64,000 nt of DNA from Nitrospirota bacterium (GCA_016190245.1 JACPQY010000024.1:121620-185619), one strand, 5' to 3'. Positions 18,107 to 21,451 are shown, counted from the stretch's first letter. Notes: generated from the sequence alone by a model not told the origin. Translations and numbers: made by a program.

Positions 18107-21100
18107 ATGCCCACCCACGACATCATCGACAACCGCAACGAGAAGCTGATCGATCATCTGAACAAAATCCTCGGTAGCTGCGAGCTGGCGCGATTTGCCG
18201 TCGGCTACCTGTTTTTGTCCGGACTGACCGGAGTCGCCAAGCGACTCCTCAAGATGAGAGAGCTCCGGCTGCTCATCGGAAATACTTCGAACAAGGAGAC
18301 CGTCGAACTTCTTGCCGAGGGATACAAGCGGCTCGACCTGGCGGCGGAGGACCTCGACAAACAGGCGTATCCCAAACGGGCCGAGGCCGGAAAAATGGCC
18401 GACGCCACGGCGCAAAATCTCCGCAACGCCGTGGAGTGGATGGATCAGACGGATGAGGGAGAAGACTTGATCGGCGGATTGATCCGCATGATTCAAGAGA
18501 AACGCATGCAGGTCCGAGTGTACACCAAGGGCCGACTCCACTCCAAAGCCTATATCTGCGATTATGGGGAAGTCTTCGACAAGGGCGGAAAGGAAGTCGA
18601 ACGGCACGAGGAGGGGATCGCCGTGGTCGGCTCCTCGAATCTGACGCTGGCCGGACTCACCCACAACACCGAGCTGAACGTGGTCGTTCAGGGGAATCAG
18701 AACCACCGGGAACTGGTCCGCTGGTTCGACGAACTCTGGAAGGAATCCCACGAGTTTGAAGAAGCCCTCATGACGGAACTCAGGGAATCCTGGGCGGCGG
18801 CGCAGGTCAAACCCTATGACATTTACATGAAGACGCTCTACGCGCTGGTGAAAGACAGGCTTGAGGGCGAGGAAGAGCAGGAACTGTTGTGGGACGACGA
18901 TATCTTCCGCAGACTCGCGAATTTTCAGAAGGTGGCCGTGCGCCAAGCCGTTCAGATGATCCGCGACTACGGCGGCGCGTTTGTCGCGGACGTCGTCGGC
19001 CTTGGAAAAAGCTACATCGGGGCGGCGATAGTGAAGCACTTCGAACGGGCCGACCACGCCCGCCCGCTGGTTGTCTGTCCGGCCGCTCTAAAAGAAATGT
19101 GGGAACGTTACAACGAGGTTTACCAGCTAAACGCCCGAATCCTCTCCATGGGCCACCTCCGGGAGGACGAAAACGACGGAGTGGCAACCCTTTTGAAAGA
19201 CTTCCAGTATAGGGACAGGGATTTCGTTCTCGTAGACGAGAGTCACAACTTGCGCCACCCCGATACCCAACGATACAAGGTCATGCAAAACTTTCTATCC
19301 ACCGGCCGAAGGTGTTGCCTCCTGACCGCCACGCCCCGGAACAAGAGCGCATGGGACGTGTACCATCAGATCAAACTCTTTCACCAGGACGACCGGACCG
19401 ATCTTCCGGTCGACCCGCCTCATCTCAAGGATTATTTCAAATTGATCGAGAAAGGGGAAAAGAAGCTGCCGGACGTGTTGTCACACATTCTCGTGCGCCG
19501 CACCCGGAATCACATCCTGCGGTGGTACGGATACGACGCCGAAACCCATCAGACGGTGGACGCGCAATCCTTCCAGGACTATACCGACGGAAAGCGTCGC
19601 GCGTACGTCCTGGTGGGCGGAAAGCATCAATTTTTCCCCCAACGGAAACTTGAAACCATCGAGTACAGCATCGAGGACACCTATCAAGGACTTTACAAGC
19701 GGCTCCGGAGCTACCTCGGCAAGGCGCGAAAGGCTGGGCCGATCAAGCCATCGCCGGGCGAACTGACGTATGCCCGATACGGCCTTTGGCATTATGTGCG
19801 GCCTGAGAGGCAGAAGCATGAACCCTACGCCCACCTTCACCGCGCCGGGGCAAACCTGCGCGGGCTCATTCGGGTCCTTTTGTTCAAACGTTTTGAGTCC
19901 AGCGTGCACGCCTTCCAGGAAACCCTCCGCCGACTCCTGAAAATTCATCACGCCTTCCTGATCGCCCTCGAACGTGGAGTCGTCCCGGCCGGGGAAGAGG
20001 CGCAGACCATCCTCTACGAGAGCGATGTTCTGGAAGAGGCCGACATGATGGATGCCCTGCACGAGGTCTCCGGTAGGTACGAGGGGAAGGACTTCGATAC
20101 GGAGACACTGAAAGAGCACATCGAACACGACCGCCGAATCTTGAAGACGGTCCTGGATCTCGTCGAACCGATCACGCCGGACAAGGATTCGAAGTTGCAG
20201 ACCCTGAAAGCTCGACTGGGGGAGAAACCGCTCCGGGGCGCGAAGCGGCTGATTTTCACTCAGTACGCCGATACGGCGAAGTATCTCCATGCCCATCTGA
20301 ACCCGGGTGGGGAGCGTTCGGATACTGACGTGATCTATAGCGGAGAGAAGAGCAGGGAGCGCGTGGTGGGTCGGTTCGCTCCAAAGGCAAATCCGGAGTA
20401 TCGCTTCCCCAAGGATGAAGACGAGCTCATGACCCTGATTGCGACGGACGTGCTCGCCGAAGGGCTGAACCTTCAGGATTGCGACCATATCATCAACTAC
20501 GACCTTCACTGGAATCCCGTCCGATTGATCCAGCGTTTCGGCCGGATCGACCGCATCGGGTCCGACCACGACGCCATCCTGGCGTACAATTTCCTCCCGG
20601 AGATCGGGATCGAGAAACACCTCGGCTTGCATGAAAAGCTGCGCAATCGTATCCAGGAAATTCACGACACGATCGGCGAGGACTCCAAACTTCTCGACCA
20701 AACCGAGCGACTGAACCCCGAGGCGATGTATGCCATTTACGAATCGCAAGGAATGAGCGGAGGTGAACCGGACGTTGCGGAGAAATCCGAAGAAGACTTT
20801 CTCGATCTTAATGAAGCGGAGGAATTCCTGCGTCAACTCCGCAAGGAGAACCCTGCCGAATTCGAGCGGATCGCCGGCCTGCGCGACGGGATCCGCGCCG
20901 CCCGGGCGGCTGAACACAAGGGGCTATACGTTTTCTGTCAAGCCGGACGCTACCAACAACTGGTTCTGCTCGACGAAAGGGGCAAGGCGATTTCCCGTGA
21001 CGTGCCGAGGGTGGTCGGAGCCGTGAAGTGTTCGCCCGACACCAAGCCCGTGAAACGTCCGGACGGTTACAACGAGGCCGTCATGACGGTTCAAAAGTCT

Positions 21101-21451
21101 TTCGCCGCGGATGTCAAACACCGGGAAGCGGAGAAACAATACAACTTCAACCTGACTCACGGTCAATTGTACGCTCTTCGAGAGTTGCGCATCCTCTACG
21201 AAGCCGCCTCTGAAGAGGACATCAAGAACGGCATCCATATTTTGGAGAGGACGTTCCGCGGAGTGCTGACGGGAGCCGTGAAGCGGGAACTGAACCAGTT
21301 GCGACGAAATGGAGTGCACGGCGAAGCGCTATACAAGAACCTCGTTCGAATCTACGATCAGCACAACCTTGTTGGTGCCTCGTCCCGGCGAAGCCTCGAA
21401 TTGGAGGAACAGATAATTCCCAGGATCATCTGTAGTGAAAGTTTCGTCTGA
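18107..21451 (+). CDS. Fusion protein: N-terminal single-HKD phospholipase-D (Nuc/BfiI-like) nuclease domain + SNF2/DEAD-like helicase (ATPase core and helicase-C)
   Basis: 1114 aa. HKD motif GRLHSKAYICDYG...GIAVVGSSNLTLAG (HxK-x4-D...GSxN) lies at residues ~140-180. Helicase motif I is ADVVGLGKSYIGAAIV, motif II LVDESHNLRH, motif III LLTATPRNKS. The C-terminal helicase domain is LIFTQYADTAKYL...LIATDVLAEGLNLQDCDHIINYDLHWNPVRLIQRFGRIDRIGS. Confidence 0.85.
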   Translation: MPTHDIIDNRNEKLIDHLNKILGSCELARFAVGYLFLSGLTGVAKRLLKMRELRLLIGNTSNKETVELLAEGYKRLDLAAEDLDKQAYPKRAEAGKMADATAQNLRNAVEWMDQTDEGEDLIGGLIRMIQEKRMQVRVYTKGRLHSKAYICDYGEVFDKGGKEVERHEEGIAVVGSSNLTLAGLTHNTELNVVVQGNQNHRELVRWFDELWKESHEFEEALMTELRESWAAAQVKPYDIYMKTLYALVKDRLEGEEEQELLWDDDIFRRLANFQKVAVRQAVQMIRDYGGAFVADVVGLGKSYIGAAIVKHFERADHARPLVVCPAALKEMWERYNEVYQLNARILSMGHLREDENDGVATLLKDFQYRDRDFVLVDESHNLRHPDTQRYKVMQNFLSTGRRCCLLTATPRNKSAWDVYHQIKLFHQDDRTDLPVDPPHLKDYFKLIEKGEKKLPDVLSHILVRRTRNHILRWYGYDAETHQTVDAQSFQDYTDGKRRAYVLVGGKHQFFPQRKLETIEYSIEDTYQGLYKRLRSYLGKARKAGPIKPSPGELTYARYGLWHYVRPERQKHEPYAHLHRAGANLRGLIRVLLFKRFESSVHAFQETLRRLLKIHHAFLIALERGVVPAGEEAQTILYESDVLEEADMMDALHEVSGRYEGKDFDTETLKEHIEHDRRILKTVLDLVEPITPDKDSKLQTLKARLGEKPLRGAKRLIFTQYADTAKYLHAHLNPGGERSDTDVIYSGEKSRERVVGRFAPKANPEYRFPKDEDELMTLIATDVLAEGLNLQDCDHIINYDLHWNPVRLIQRFGRIDRIGSDHDAILAYNFLPEIGIEKHLGLHEKLRNRIQEIHDTIGEDSKLLDQTERLNPEAMYAIYESQGMSGGEPDVAEKSEEDFLDLNEAEEFLRQLRKENPAEFERIAGLRDGIRAARAAEHKGLYVFCQAGRYQQLVLLDERGKAISRDVPRVVGAVKCSPDTKPVKRPDGYNEAVMTVQKSFAADVKHREAEKQYNFNLTHGQLYALRELRILYEAASEEDIKNGIHILERTFRGVLTGAVKRELNQLRRNGVHGEALYKNLVRIYDQHNLVGASSRRSLELEEQIIPRIICSESFV

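What the first reader, a model, noticed from the sequence alone, without database searches (positions are those of the whole stretch)
18107..21451. PLD (single HKD) nuclease fused N-terminally to an SNF2-family helicase
Residues ~140-180 carry one HxK(x)4D...GSxN motif (RLHSKAYICDYG...VVGSSNLT), as in dimeric Nuc/BfiI-type endonucleases. The remainder is a full SNF2/DEAD-like ATPase (GLGKS, DESH, TATPRN, helicase-C). A translocase-tethered PLD nuclease is the arrangement expected of an ATP-dependent restriction effector. It differs from Type I/III Res subunits (PD-ExK at the C-terminus) and from DISARM, where the PLD (DrmC) is a separate small protein.
Basis: partly seen in the sequence, partly recalled or inferred. 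Interest (0 to 1): 0.65.

Follow-up and report, generated by a model that had tools for sequence, protein, structure and literature searches.

The report
PLD–SNF2 motor nuclease with methylase partner
The gene really does encode a DNA-cutting (PLD) domain fused to an SNF2 DNA motor. It is the probable restriction half of a widespread, uncharacterised two-gene restriction-modification-like defence cassette whose other half is a large adenine methyltransferase upstream, so it is a new variant of a known kind.

Summary
Observation confirmed. ORF 18107-21451 (1114 aa) carries one HKD motif (H145-x-K147-x4-D152, G175SSN178), a complete SNF2 ATPase and an unannotated C-terminal domain. The interpretation as an ATP-dependent restriction effector is supported by context, not by experiment. 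In 37 of 40 related loci with enough upstream DNA, an Eco57I/MmeI-class N6-adenine methyltransferase lies upstream on the same strand. Distant subfamilies (26-33% identity, bacteria and archaea) keep the same pairing in either gene order. The gap between the two genes holds variable embedded defence or toxin-antitoxin genes; the window's DUF4143 ATPase is such cargo. The first ~200 residues of the methyltransferase stay about 60% identical even where its catalytic core drops to about 25%, which suggests a docking module for the helicase-nuclease.

The fusion itself is not new. It appears as 'C3a139 HKD+Snf2', in Type-2 BREX-related systems, and SauUSI is a solved PLD-helicase analogue. This cassette lacks DUF499, DUF3780 and DrmA/B, so it belongs to none of those systems. 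In this window the methyltransferase carries an in-frame TAG in its specificity domain, so the local system may be defective. The 10-kb cassette is a low-GC island flanked by a ~150-bp direct repeat.

The parts
11140..11285 (.). Left copy of the ~150-bp imperfect direct repeat that brackets the cassette. It ends 38 nt before the methyltransferase ATG, just before a TTGACA.
   Evidence: a 28-bp exact block at 11143-11170 and 21463-21490; a 63-bp block with 92% identity at 11223-11285 and 21558-21620; only two copies in the window.
11324..14725 (+). Eco57I/MmeI-class gamma N6-adenine DNA methyltransferase (1133 codons, then an in-frame TAG). Residues 1-~200 form a conserved family-specific N-terminal module. 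Motif I is DPACGSG (531) and motif IV is NPPY (767). The TaqI_C-type specificity domain begins near residue 1025.
   Evidence: Pfam Eco57I 1.1e-35, MmeI_Mtase, and TaqI_C positions 1-59 of 118; PADLOC REase_MTase_IIG 1e-94 and weaker DrmMI/PglX hits; motifs; conservation by domain.
14723..14725 (+). In-frame TAG that interrupts the methyltransferase specificity domain. Homologues have F or Y here; the closest, L038, has Y.
14729..15259 (+). Same-frame continuation of the methyltransferase (176 codons), carrying the second half of the TaqI_C domain.
   Evidence: Pfam TaqI_C positions 65-118 of 118. The frame is the same as that of 11324. In L010, L018, L030, L038 and other loci the two parts form one ORF.
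15328..15356 (+). Near-consensus sigma-70-like site (TTGACA-17-AATAAT) ahead of the embedded genes. It is a consensus match only.
   Evidence: The total number of sites is not above the shuffled expectation.
15622..16257 (+). Embedded ORF of 211 aa with a weak HTH_31 match; variable cargo, not core.
   Evidence: A weak homologue occurs only in L030.
16229..16759 (+). Embedded ORF of 176 aa with no family match.
16871..18103 (+). Embedded AAA_14 + DUF4143 ATPase (PADLOC candidate PDC-S01). It is cargo between the two core genes.
   Evidence: Pfam DUF4143 3.6e-47 and AAA_14 3.2e-24; PDC-S01 4.8e-157. A homologue sits in the gap in only a few related loci: 3 by tblastn, 4-5 of 129 gap ORFs by Pfam.
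18107..21451 (+). HKD(PLD)-SNF2 helicase-nuclease, 1114 aa: the finding itself.
18107..18751 (+). N-terminal PLD-fold nuclease domain (aa ~1-215) with one HKD half-site and a low-confidence helical insertion at about aa 60-120.
   Evidence: Pfam PLDc_2. The only PDB sequence relative is the SauUSI PLD domain, E 5e-4, aligned at 6-50 and 164-229. AF2 model.
18539..18562 (+). HxK(x)4D motif: H145, K147, D152.
18629..18640 (+). GSSN motif: G175 to N178.
18899..19531 (+). SNF2 ATPase lobe 1 (aa ~265-475), with Walker A GLGKS 298-302, DESH 377-380 and TATP 407-410.
   Evidence: Pfam SNF2-rel_dom and ResIII. The profile against the PDB hits the Sulfolobus SNF2/Rad54 protein at 9.5e-22 and RapA. The motifs are invariant in 110 representatives.
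20195..20596 (+). SNF2 ATPase lobe 2 (Helicase_C, aa ~697-830), with motif VI QRFGRIDRIG at 809-818.
20804..21448 (+). Conserved C-terminal domain (aa ~900-1114) with no family annotation: a four-stranded sheet, a helical bundle and a terminal strand. It is not hypervariable.
   Evidence: No Pfam or PADLOC hit. AF2 pLDDT is mostly 73-93. Identity to the window domain is 48-71% across related loci; mean pairwise identity is 62%.
21460..21620 (.). Right copy of the flanking direct repeat. It begins 9 nt after the helicase stop, and its non-conserved middle forms a strong hairpin.

Best explanation
The ORF encodes the restriction (motor-nuclease) subunit of a two-gene, ATP-dependent restriction-modification-like cassette.

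Gene 1 (11324-15259) is a large Eco57I/MmeI-class N6-adenine methyltransferase. Its variable C-terminal TaqI_C-type domain most likely sets the DNA sequence specificity. Its conserved ~200-residue N-terminal module most likely docks it to the helicase-nuclease.

Gene 2 (18107-21451) supplies an SNF2 double-stranded-DNA translocase and a single-HKD PLD nuclease. A single-HKD domain must pair with a second copy to form one active site, as in Nuc, BfiI and SauUSI.

Inferred mechanism: the methyltransferase marks host sites. On unmethylated foreign sites the methyltransferase-bound complex licenses ATP-driven translocation and PLD cleavage, which follows Type I, ISP or III logic.

What is shown: the domains, the catalytic motifs and their conservation, and the conserved gene pairing. 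What is inferred: dimerisation, the M-R contact, dependence on methylation status, and cleavage.

The cassette is a horizontally acquired ~10-kb island. The space between the two genes holds interchangeable embedded defence or toxin-antitoxin genes. In this window the methyltransferase has a premature stop in its specificity domain, so this copy may be inactive.
For: Domains and motifs are intact and under purifying selection.

Gene pairing is conserved:
- A methyltransferase lies upstream on the same strand in 37 of 40 close loci with at least 6 kb upstream. It is directly adjacent (gap under 170 bp) in about 10 of them.
- The same pairing appears in distant subfamilies and in archaea, in either gene order: L085-L088, Haloferax and Synechocystis pSYSX, Thermococcus and Pelobacter.
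- It also appears in 53 of 79 IMG/VR loci.

The methyltransferase catalytic motifs are intact.

The parts of the methyltransferase diverge at different rates:
- Identity to the window sequence is a median 60% (range 43-71%) for residues 1-200.
- It is only 23-32% for the catalytic core in many of the same loci.
- The specificity region is detectable in only 11 of 36 loci.
- Pairwise identity of the N-terminal module tracks the helicase (Spearman 0.43-0.55) better than the catalytic core does (0.19-0.28).

The gap genes are typical defence cargo: OLD-like ABC ATPases, MNT/HEPN, DUF4143, PIN, HipA, Schlafen and DarTG.

The PLD domain is SauUSI-like, and the whole model matches RapA, SNF2 proteins and SauUSI.

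In the Synechocystis homologue of the cassette, the methyltransferase slr6050 (M.Ssp6803IV, tentatively GA(m6A)GGC) could not be deleted to segregation. This fits a cognate restriction activity (PMC6105098; identity of the locus).

The cassette is an island: the GC shift coincides with its ends and flanking repeats bracket it.
Against: No member of this family has been tested for cleavage, ATPase activity or phage defence.

In DISARM the PLD protein DrmC is dispensable for protection (bioRxiv 10.1101/2021.12.28.474362). A PLD domain next to an SNF2 protein and a methyltransferase therefore does not prove nucleolytic restriction.

About one locus in five keeps an intact helicase-nuclease ORF while the methyltransferase is absent or damaged:
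- Absent: L017, L025, L082.
- Truncated: L006, L049, L053, L057.
- Internally deleted: L072.
- Nonsense-interrupted: this window.

This fits an R subunit that needs M in order to act. It fits poorly with the apparent essentiality of slr6050.

About 16% of distant cluster representatives lack the HKD histidine while all keep the ATPase.
Confidence: 0.68

Rival explanations
1. This is a BREX/DISARM-like exclusion module. The SNF2 motor and the PglX/DrmMI-like methyltransferase block replication of unmethylated DNA without the PLD domain doing the essential work; the PLD is accessory or a backup.
For: The methyltransferase has weak PglX and DrmMI model hits and the helicase has DrmD and BrxH hits. 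DrmC is dispensable in DISARM, and DrmD+DrmMI contribute to protection. Some distant relatives lack the HKD histidine while their ATPase is invariant.
Against: H145, K147 and GSSN are invariant across the close family and across the 85-sequence alignment that reaches 28% identity, which argues for selection on catalysis. None of the other BREX or DISARM core genes (PglZ, BrxC, DrmA, DrmB) is present in any annotated context.
Confidence: 0.17
2. This is an autonomous SauUSI-like Type IV enzyme. The helicase-nuclease acts alone on modified foreign DNA, and the neighbouring methyltransferase is an independent Type IIG-like element that merely shares a defence island.
For: SauUSI is the only solved sequence relative of the PLD domain and has the same PLD-then-helicase order. 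Intact helicase genes persist without a functional methyltransferase in several loci.
Against: The pairing with one class of methyltransferase holds at 26-33% helicase identity, in both gene orders, in bacteria and archaea, often with gaps of 0-20 nt. The methyltransferase carries a family-specific N-terminal module that tracks the helicase. There is no DUF3427/SRA-like reader domain, and the C-terminal domain is conserved rather than variable.
Confidence: 0.08
3. This is a housekeeping SNF2 protein (RapA-like transcription or repair factor) that happens to carry a PLD-like domain.
For: RapA is the best structural match over the full length.
Against: The distribution is patchy, with 62-78% identity shared across more than ten phyla. 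The gene sits in a low-GC island, occurs on plasmids and in IMG/VR contigs, and has defence or toxin-antitoxin neighbours. TM-scores to RapA are low, 0.28 and 0.35.
Confidence: 0.03

Closest known systems
Type-2 BREX-related (BR) systems (Rakesh & Krishnan, NAR 2026, PMC12839542); earlier described as the COG1743 methyltransferase - DUF499 - SWI2/SNF2-nuclease operon (Bell et al. 2020, PMC7641849)
   Same: The effector is an SNF2 helicase with an N-terminal HKD endonuclease and a RapA-like overall layout. It is paired with an N6-adenine methyltransferase and predicted to act like an R-M system.
   Different: Those systems are centred on a DUF499 AAA+ ATPase, use a DUF1156-type methyltransferase, and have DUF3780 in 98% of cases. 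None of these was seen here or in any of the annotated related contexts. The partner here is an Eco57I/MmeI-class methyltransferase with its own N-terminal module.
Class 1 DISARM (DrmD SNF2 helicase + DrmMI Eco57I-like methyltransferase + DrmA/B + DrmC PLD)
   Same: The same three activities occur together: an SNF2 motor, a large N6-adenine methyltransferase and a PLD nuclease. The helicase and the methyltransferase hit DrmD and DrmMI models weakly.
   Different: Here the PLD is fused to the SNF2 protein, there is no DrmA or DrmB, and model scores are far below the equivalog cut-offs (153 against 610).
SauUSI (PDB 7CLG), ATP-dependent Type IV restriction enzyme of Staphylococcus aureus
   Same: It has an N-terminal single-HKD PLD nuclease followed by an SF2 ATPase. 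It is the only PDB sequence relative of this PLD domain (E 5e-4) and a full-length Foldseek hit.
   Different: SauUSI has a non-SNF2 helicase core, a DUF3427 reader of modified cytosine, no methyltransferase partner, and targets modified DNA (the functional description is from my own knowledge of the SauUSI literature).
PADLOC C3a139 'HKD+Snf2' (Shah et al. 2018, type III CRISPR-associated cluster 139)
   Same: This is the best profile match for the protein: 4.3e-82, residues 5-863.
   Different: It was defined only by proximity to type III CRISPR loci in 4 genomes. The profile does not cover the C-terminal domain, and no system or function is attached to it.
Hma / Type-1 BR (HmaA SNF2 helicase with C-terminal PD-(D/E)xK nickase; Liu et al. 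2024, PMC11232893)
   Same: An SNF2 motor fused to a nuclease, an operon with a methyltransferase, and embedded defence genes inside the operon.
   Different: The nuclease is a C-terminal PD-(D/E)xK domain rather than an N-terminal PLD. A DUF499 ATPase is present. Only the helicase C-lobe matches (HmaA 9.5e-26 over residues 710-820).
Type III and Type ISP restriction-modification enzymes
   Same: The logic inferred here is the same: the methyltransferase and its recognition domain provide specificity, and an SF2 motor-nuclease provides ATP-dependent restriction. An orphan motor subunit is harmless without its methyltransferase partner.
   Different: Those enzymes use PD-(D/E)xK or Mrr nucleases and non-SNF2 motors. 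Type ISP enzymes are single polypeptides (from my own knowledge; not tested here).

Membership tests
PLD/HKD nuclease superfamily (single-HKD, Nuc/BfiI/SauUSI type) | HxK(x)4D plus GSxN catalytic motif, and a match to the PLD-like domain profile | tested here: met
   HSKAYICD at 145-152 and GSSN at 175-178. PLDc_2 scores 45.4 bits against a cut-off of 27. H, K and GSSN are invariant in 85 diverse homologues.
PLD/HKD nuclease superfamily (single-HKD, Nuc/BfiI/SauUSI type) | Only one HKD per chain, so the active site is formed by a homodimer | tested here: inconclusive
   There is one motif and one PLDc_2 stretch. Dimerisation itself could not be tested because no multimer prediction tool was available.
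SNF2 family of SF2 ATPases | SNF2 N-lobe and Helicase_C profiles, motifs I, II, III and VI, and closest solved relatives that are SNF2 proteins | tested here: met
   SNF2-rel_dom scores 31.6 against 24.9 and Helicase_C 59.4 against 23.5. Profile hits to Sulfolobus SNF2/Rad54 and to RapA are about 1e-21. RapA and chromatin remodelers top the Foldseek list. The motifs are invariant.
DISARM (DrmD) | Score above the NCBIfam DrmD equivalog cut-off | tested here: not met
   153.3 bits against a cut-off of 610; the DrmD_b model scores 100.8 against 950.
DISARM (DrmD) | Core genes drmA (helicase) and drmB (DUF1998) in the locus | tested here: not met
   Neither gene is in the window neighbourhood or in the annotated related loci.
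Type-2 BREX-related system | SNF2 helicase with an N-terminal HKD endonuclease | tested here: met
   family definition from PMC12839542.
Type-2 BREX-related system | DUF499 AAA+ ATPase as the central component | tested here: not met
   No DUF499 in the window, among the top families of 129 gap ORFs, or in the Pfam-annotated contexts.
Type-2 BREX-related system | Standalone DUF3780 gene and a DUF1156-type N6-methyltransferase | tested here: not met
   The methyltransferase is Eco57I/MmeI_Mtase/TaqI_C type. DUF3780 and DUF1156 were not seen in any annotated context.
SauUSI-type Type IV restriction enzyme | C-terminal DUF3427/SRA-like reader of modified cytosine; stand-alone gene | tested here: not met
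   No Pfam hit in residues 861-1114 even at E up to 10. The gene is linked to a methyltransferase.
Hma / Type-1 BR | SNF2 helicase with a C-terminal PD-(D/E)xK nuclease, plus a DUF499 ATPase | tested here: not met
   The HmaA model matches only residues 710-820. No C-terminal nuclease family and no DUF499 were found.
Gamma-class N6-adenine DNA methyltransferase (partner gene) | AdoMet motif I (xPxxGxG) and catalytic motif IV (NPPY/F/W); Eco57I-type profile | tested here: met
   DPACGSG at 531 and NPPY at 767. Eco57I 1.1e-35. However, the specificity domain is cut by an in-frame TAG.
Classical restriction-modification system (functional definition) | Sequence-specific methylation protects the host; unmethylated DNA is cleaved | not testable with these tools
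   The only indirect evidence is that the homologous cassette's methyltransferase slr6050 is non-deletable in Synechocystis.

The most novel reading that the evidence does not exclude
The cassette is an undescribed class of ATP-dependent restriction-modification enzyme, found across bacteria and archaea. An Eco57I/MmeI-type methyltransferase-specificity protein recruits a dimeric single-HKD PLD nuclease, driven by an SNF2 motor, through a dedicated conserved N-terminal adaptor module. Different methyltransferase bodies can be swapped onto this module. The interval between the M and R genes acts as a landing pad for embedded defence genes. Because the nuclease depends on the methyltransferase for activity, the methyltransferase decays first while the nuclease gene persists, which is the reverse of classical R-M decay.
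Probability: 0.35. Interest if true: 0.6.

Novelty: new variant of a known kind. Interest (0 to 1): 0.45.

Why it matters
If the pair works as inferred, it adds a widespread motor-nuclease design to the ATP-dependent restriction enzymes: an SNF2 translocase plus a PLD half-site. The family has at least 1761 clusters at 50% identity with E up to 1e-30, and it occurs in bacteria, archaea, plasmids and IMG/VR contigs. The design also has a modular way of attaching different methyltransferase or specificity bodies. It would explain the unexplained 'essential' methyltransferase slr6050 of Synechocystis PCC 6803. It would also give defence-system finders an anchor pair for discovering embedded defence genes. 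For this window specifically, the result is more modest: one more member of the family, probably with a crippled methyltransferase.

Tried and rejected
- The DUF4143/AAA_14 ATPase (PDC-S01) as a third core component: rejected. It occupies the gap in only a few related loci, and the gap content is highly variable.
- DISARM, Type-2 BR, Hma and SauUSI membership: each fails at least one defining feature.
- First AlphaFold run, with 30 close homologues: unusable (pLDDT 49.7). It was repeated with an 85-sequence diverse alignment (pLDDT 80.4).
- The methyltransferase N-terminal module as an inactivated MmeI-type PD-(D/E)xK domain. The spacing N109-x9-N119-x-K121 resembles MmeI's D-x9-E-x-K as I recall it. 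This was not supported: no Pfam hit at E up to 10, and no PDB hit with a 42-sequence profile. It remains speculation.
- Flanking repeats as a known RNA or a tRNA-derived att site: no Rfam hit and no tRNA. The fold energy is not unusual for the left copy.
- Search for an unoccupied insertion site in metagenome contigs with two repeat-derived patterns: no match.
- Literature searches for a named two-gene 'Eco57I-type methyltransferase + HKD-SNF2' system found none in the held library. This is absence in a limited library, not proof of novelty.

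
Full report
**Observation.** The ORF 18107-21451 (+) is real and uninterrupted: 1114 codons. Its ATG lies 3 nt after the stop of the preceding gene and about 9 nt downstream of a GGAG.

- HSKAYICD at residues 145-152
- GSSN at 175-178
- GLGKS at 298-302
- DESH at 377-380
- TATP at 407
- QRFGRIDRIG at 809

Pfam places PLDc_2 at residues 125-211, SNF2-rel_dom and ResIII over lobe 1, and Helicase_C at 697-818. PLDc_2, SNF2-rel_dom and Helicase_C all pass their gathering thresholds.
- In 120 close homologues the catalytic H, K and GSSN are at least 98% conserved, and the protein is conserved along its whole length.
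- In an 85-sequence alignment reaching 28% identity they are invariant.
- In 110 full-length representatives of 50%-identity clusters the ATPase motifs are 100% invariant. The HKD histidine is kept in 92, the lysine in 94 (plus 11 Arg) and N178 in 101.

**Provenance and spread.** An identical protein is on record from a Nitrospirota metagenome-assembled genome, on a 230-kb contig. More than 5500 proteins match at E up to 1e-10. The best 120 are all 1089-1136 aa long and 68-78% identical. They come from Nitrospirota, Deltaproteobacteria, Verrucomicrobiota, Planctomycetota, Chlamydiota, Kiritimatiellia and other groups. A pattern scan of one genome per GTDB species found 343 carriers of this close family. 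An exhaustive search of 1.84 billion cluster representatives gave 1761 clusters at E up to 1e-30, many of them full-length at 30-60% identity. High identity across phyla, a patchy distribution, plasmid copies and IMG/VR copies all indicate horizontal transfer.

In the window, GC content falls from at least 0.66 to 0.51-0.62 exactly between about 11300 and 21500. The flanking genes are ordinary chromosomal genes: Kelch, FG-GAP and RCC1 repeat proteins, tRNA-guanine transglycosylase, phosphatases and glycosidases.

**Genomic context, the key result.**
- The gene at 11324 is an Eco57I/MmeI-class methyltransferase with a TaqI_C specificity domain. Its motifs I (DPACGSG) and IV (NPPY) are intact.
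- A homologous methyltransferase lies upstream on the same strand in 37 of the 40 related loci that have at least 6 kb of upstream sequence.
- In about ten loci the two genes are directly adjacent, with a gap under 170 bp or an overlap.
- In the others they are separated by 0.5-8.5 kb of almost entirely co-directional, highly variable genes. These include OLD-like ABC ATPases with DUF4276, MNT/HEPN pairs, DUF4143 ATPases, SPL-like proteins, PIN, HipA, Uma2, Schlafen, DarTG and an IS200 transposase.
- The window's three intervening ORFs, including the AAA_14+DUF4143 ATPase that PADLOC calls PDC-S01, are therefore embedded cargo rather than core components.

More distant subfamilies show the same partnership:
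- A 31%-identical clade, named 'NgoFVII family restriction endonuclease' or 'helicase-related protein' by NCBI, has the methyltransferase immediately downstream (Parasphingorhabdus, Methanosarcinales).
- Clades at 35-60% identity have methyltransferase-UvrD-helicase and methyltransferase-GmrSD-helicase arrangements.
- Plasmids of Haloferax, Thermococcus, Pelobacter and Synechocystis carry the pair.
- So do 53 of 79 IMG/VR loci.

**Anatomy of the partner.** The parts of the methyltransferase evolve at different rates.
- The first 200 residues stay 43-71% identical to the window sequence (median 60%) in every locus.
- The catalytic core falls to 23-32% in many of the same loci.
- The specificity region is recognisable in only 11 of 36 loci.
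- Pairwise identity of the N-terminal module correlates with helicase identity (Spearman 0.43-0.55) better than the catalytic core does (0.19-0.28). This comparison has no phylogenetic correction.
- The module is recognisable even in the Synechocystis, Pelobacter and Haloferax partners.
- It matches no Pfam family and no solved structure.

I read it as the module that couples interchangeable methyltransferase bodies to the conserved helicase-nuclease. That is an inference.

**Likely mechanism.** Established knowledge of single-HKD nucleases (Nuc, BfiI, SauUSI) says two chains must pair to build one active site. SNF2 proteins are double-stranded-DNA translocases. Combined with the obligate methyltransferase partnership, the best-supported model is a Type I/III/ISP-like logic. 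The methyltransferase protein recognises a short site through its variable domain and methylates host DNA. On unmethylated sites it licenses the bound motor-nuclease, which translocates and cuts. Only the parts list and its conservation are shown here. Contact, dimerisation, dependence on methylation and cleavage are all inferred.

One piece of experimental literature bears on it. In Synechocystis PCC 6803 the cassette's methyltransferase is slr6050 (M.Ssp6803IV, tentatively GA(m6A)GGC). Its deletion never segregated, and the authors called it essential without noting the neighbouring helicase-nuclease (PMC6105098; locus identity).

**Observations that complicate the picture.** Roughly one locus in five has an intact helicase-nuclease ORF with a missing or damaged methyltransferase:
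- none within 10 kb in L017 and L025, and none in the 7.5 kb available upstream in L082
- N-terminal fragments only in L006 (followed by IS200), L049 (followed by DarTG), L053 and L057
- an in-frame deletion of the catalytic core in L072
- the window itself

The helicase genes in these loci are full-length single alignments. In classical R-M decay the nuclease is lost first. The reverse pattern here fits a nuclease that is inert without its methyltransferase and specificity partner, but it sits awkwardly with the slr6050 result. In addition, DrmC, the PLD protein of DISARM, is dispensable for DISARM protection. A non-nucleolytic BREX/DISARM-like mode therefore remains a serious rival.

**This window's copy.** The methyltransferase reading frame carries a TAG at 14723-14725 and continues in the same frame to 15259. 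The TaqI_C domain is split across the stop. Homologues have F or Y at that position, and the closest (L038, 68% identical) has Y, so a single-base TAY-to-TAG change is the simplest explanation. Unless this is an assembly error, the local methyltransferase lacks the last ~177 residues of its specificity domain.

**Comparison with known systems.** The HKD-SNF2 fusion itself is already documented:
- It is the PADLOC profile 'C3a139 HKD+Snf2', which is the best hit at 4.3e-82. That profile was defined as a type III CRISPR neighbour.
- It was described with COG1743 methyltransferase + DUF499 operons.
- It is now named as the effector of Type-2 BREX-related systems.
- HKD domains on R-M helicases were noted in 2008.

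This cassette is not a member of those systems: DUF499, DUF3780 and the DUF1156-type methyltransferase are absent in every context examined. It is not DISARM (no DrmA/B; DrmD score 153 against 610). It is not Hma (which has a C-terminal PD-(D/E)xK nuclease). It is not SauUSI-type (no reader domain, and it is linked to a methyltransferase). It works most like a split, PLD-armed relative of Type III/ISP enzymes and of the DrmD-DrmMI(-DrmC) part of class 1 DISARM.

I found no paper in the held library that names or tests the two-gene 'Eco57I-class methyltransferase + HKD-SNF2' cassette. That is a limited search.

**Verdict.** Novelty is moderate: the protein architecture is known, while the system-level arrangement (two-gene core, adaptor module, embedded-gene hotspot, methyltransferase-first decay) appears undescribed and is untested. 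Interest 0.45.

Noticed in passing
window 14723-14725 (within 11324-15259): In-frame TAG inside the TaqI_C specificity domain of the partner methyltransferase. Homologues read F or Y there. It is probably a nonsense mutation that disables or alters the local system, or an assembly error.
   Followed up: yes
window 11140-11285 and 21460-21620: A ~150-bp imperfect direct repeat brackets the low-GC cassette exactly: a 28-bp exact block plus a 63-bp block at 92% identity. There are only two copies in the window and none in related loci or in metagenome contigs. There is no Rfam or tRNA match and no integrase in the cassette, so the insertion mechanism is unexplained.
   Followed up: partly
related loci L006, L049, L053, L057, L072, L017, L025, L082, L088: Intact helicase-nuclease genes persist beside truncated, internally deleted, split or absent methyltransferases. 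L072 keeps the N-terminal module plus the specificity domain in frame but lacks the catalytic core. This is the reverse of the usual R-M decay order.
   Followed up: partly
window 11324-11920 (methyltransferase residues 1-~200) and equivalents in 41 loci (alignment A5): An unannotated N-terminal module is conserved across all partner methyltransferases, including distant archaeal and cyanobacterial ones. Its motifs are LFVFS(N/D)..Q..WH(F/L)LNVK, RRL(F/I)RRI, LRTA.ER and AFDVE.VTK.FY. No Pfam or PDB relative was found.
   Followed up: partly
L090 (Synechocystis PCC 6803 plasmid pSYSX, 43696-51129 in the record): The 'essential' methyltransferase slr6050 (M.Ssp6803IV) sits two small genes (a hypothetical protein and a VapC toxin) downstream of a full-length HKD-SNF2 homologue. 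The published methylome study did not mention that homologue, and a cognate restriction activity would explain the failure to segregate the deletion.
   Followed up: partly
window 15622-18103: Three embedded genes lie between the methyltransferase and the helicase: a 211-aa ORF with a weak HTH match, a 176-aa ORF with no match, and the DUF4143/AAA_14 ATPase (PADLOC candidate PDC-S01). They are preceded by a near-consensus TTGACA-17-AATAAT at 15328-15356.
   Followed up: partly
window 6711-10157, 25463-29491, 40983-42869: Large proteins with Kelch, FG-GAP/Big_13 and RCC1 repeats flank the island. These are ordinary chromosomal genes of this Nitrospirota genome and unrelated to the finding.
   Followed up: no
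L054 3009-3221: A second, 71-residue N-terminal fragment of the helicase-nuclease (77% identity) lies about 2 kb upstream of the intact gene. It looks like a remnant of an earlier copy or of a cassette exchange.
   Followed up: no
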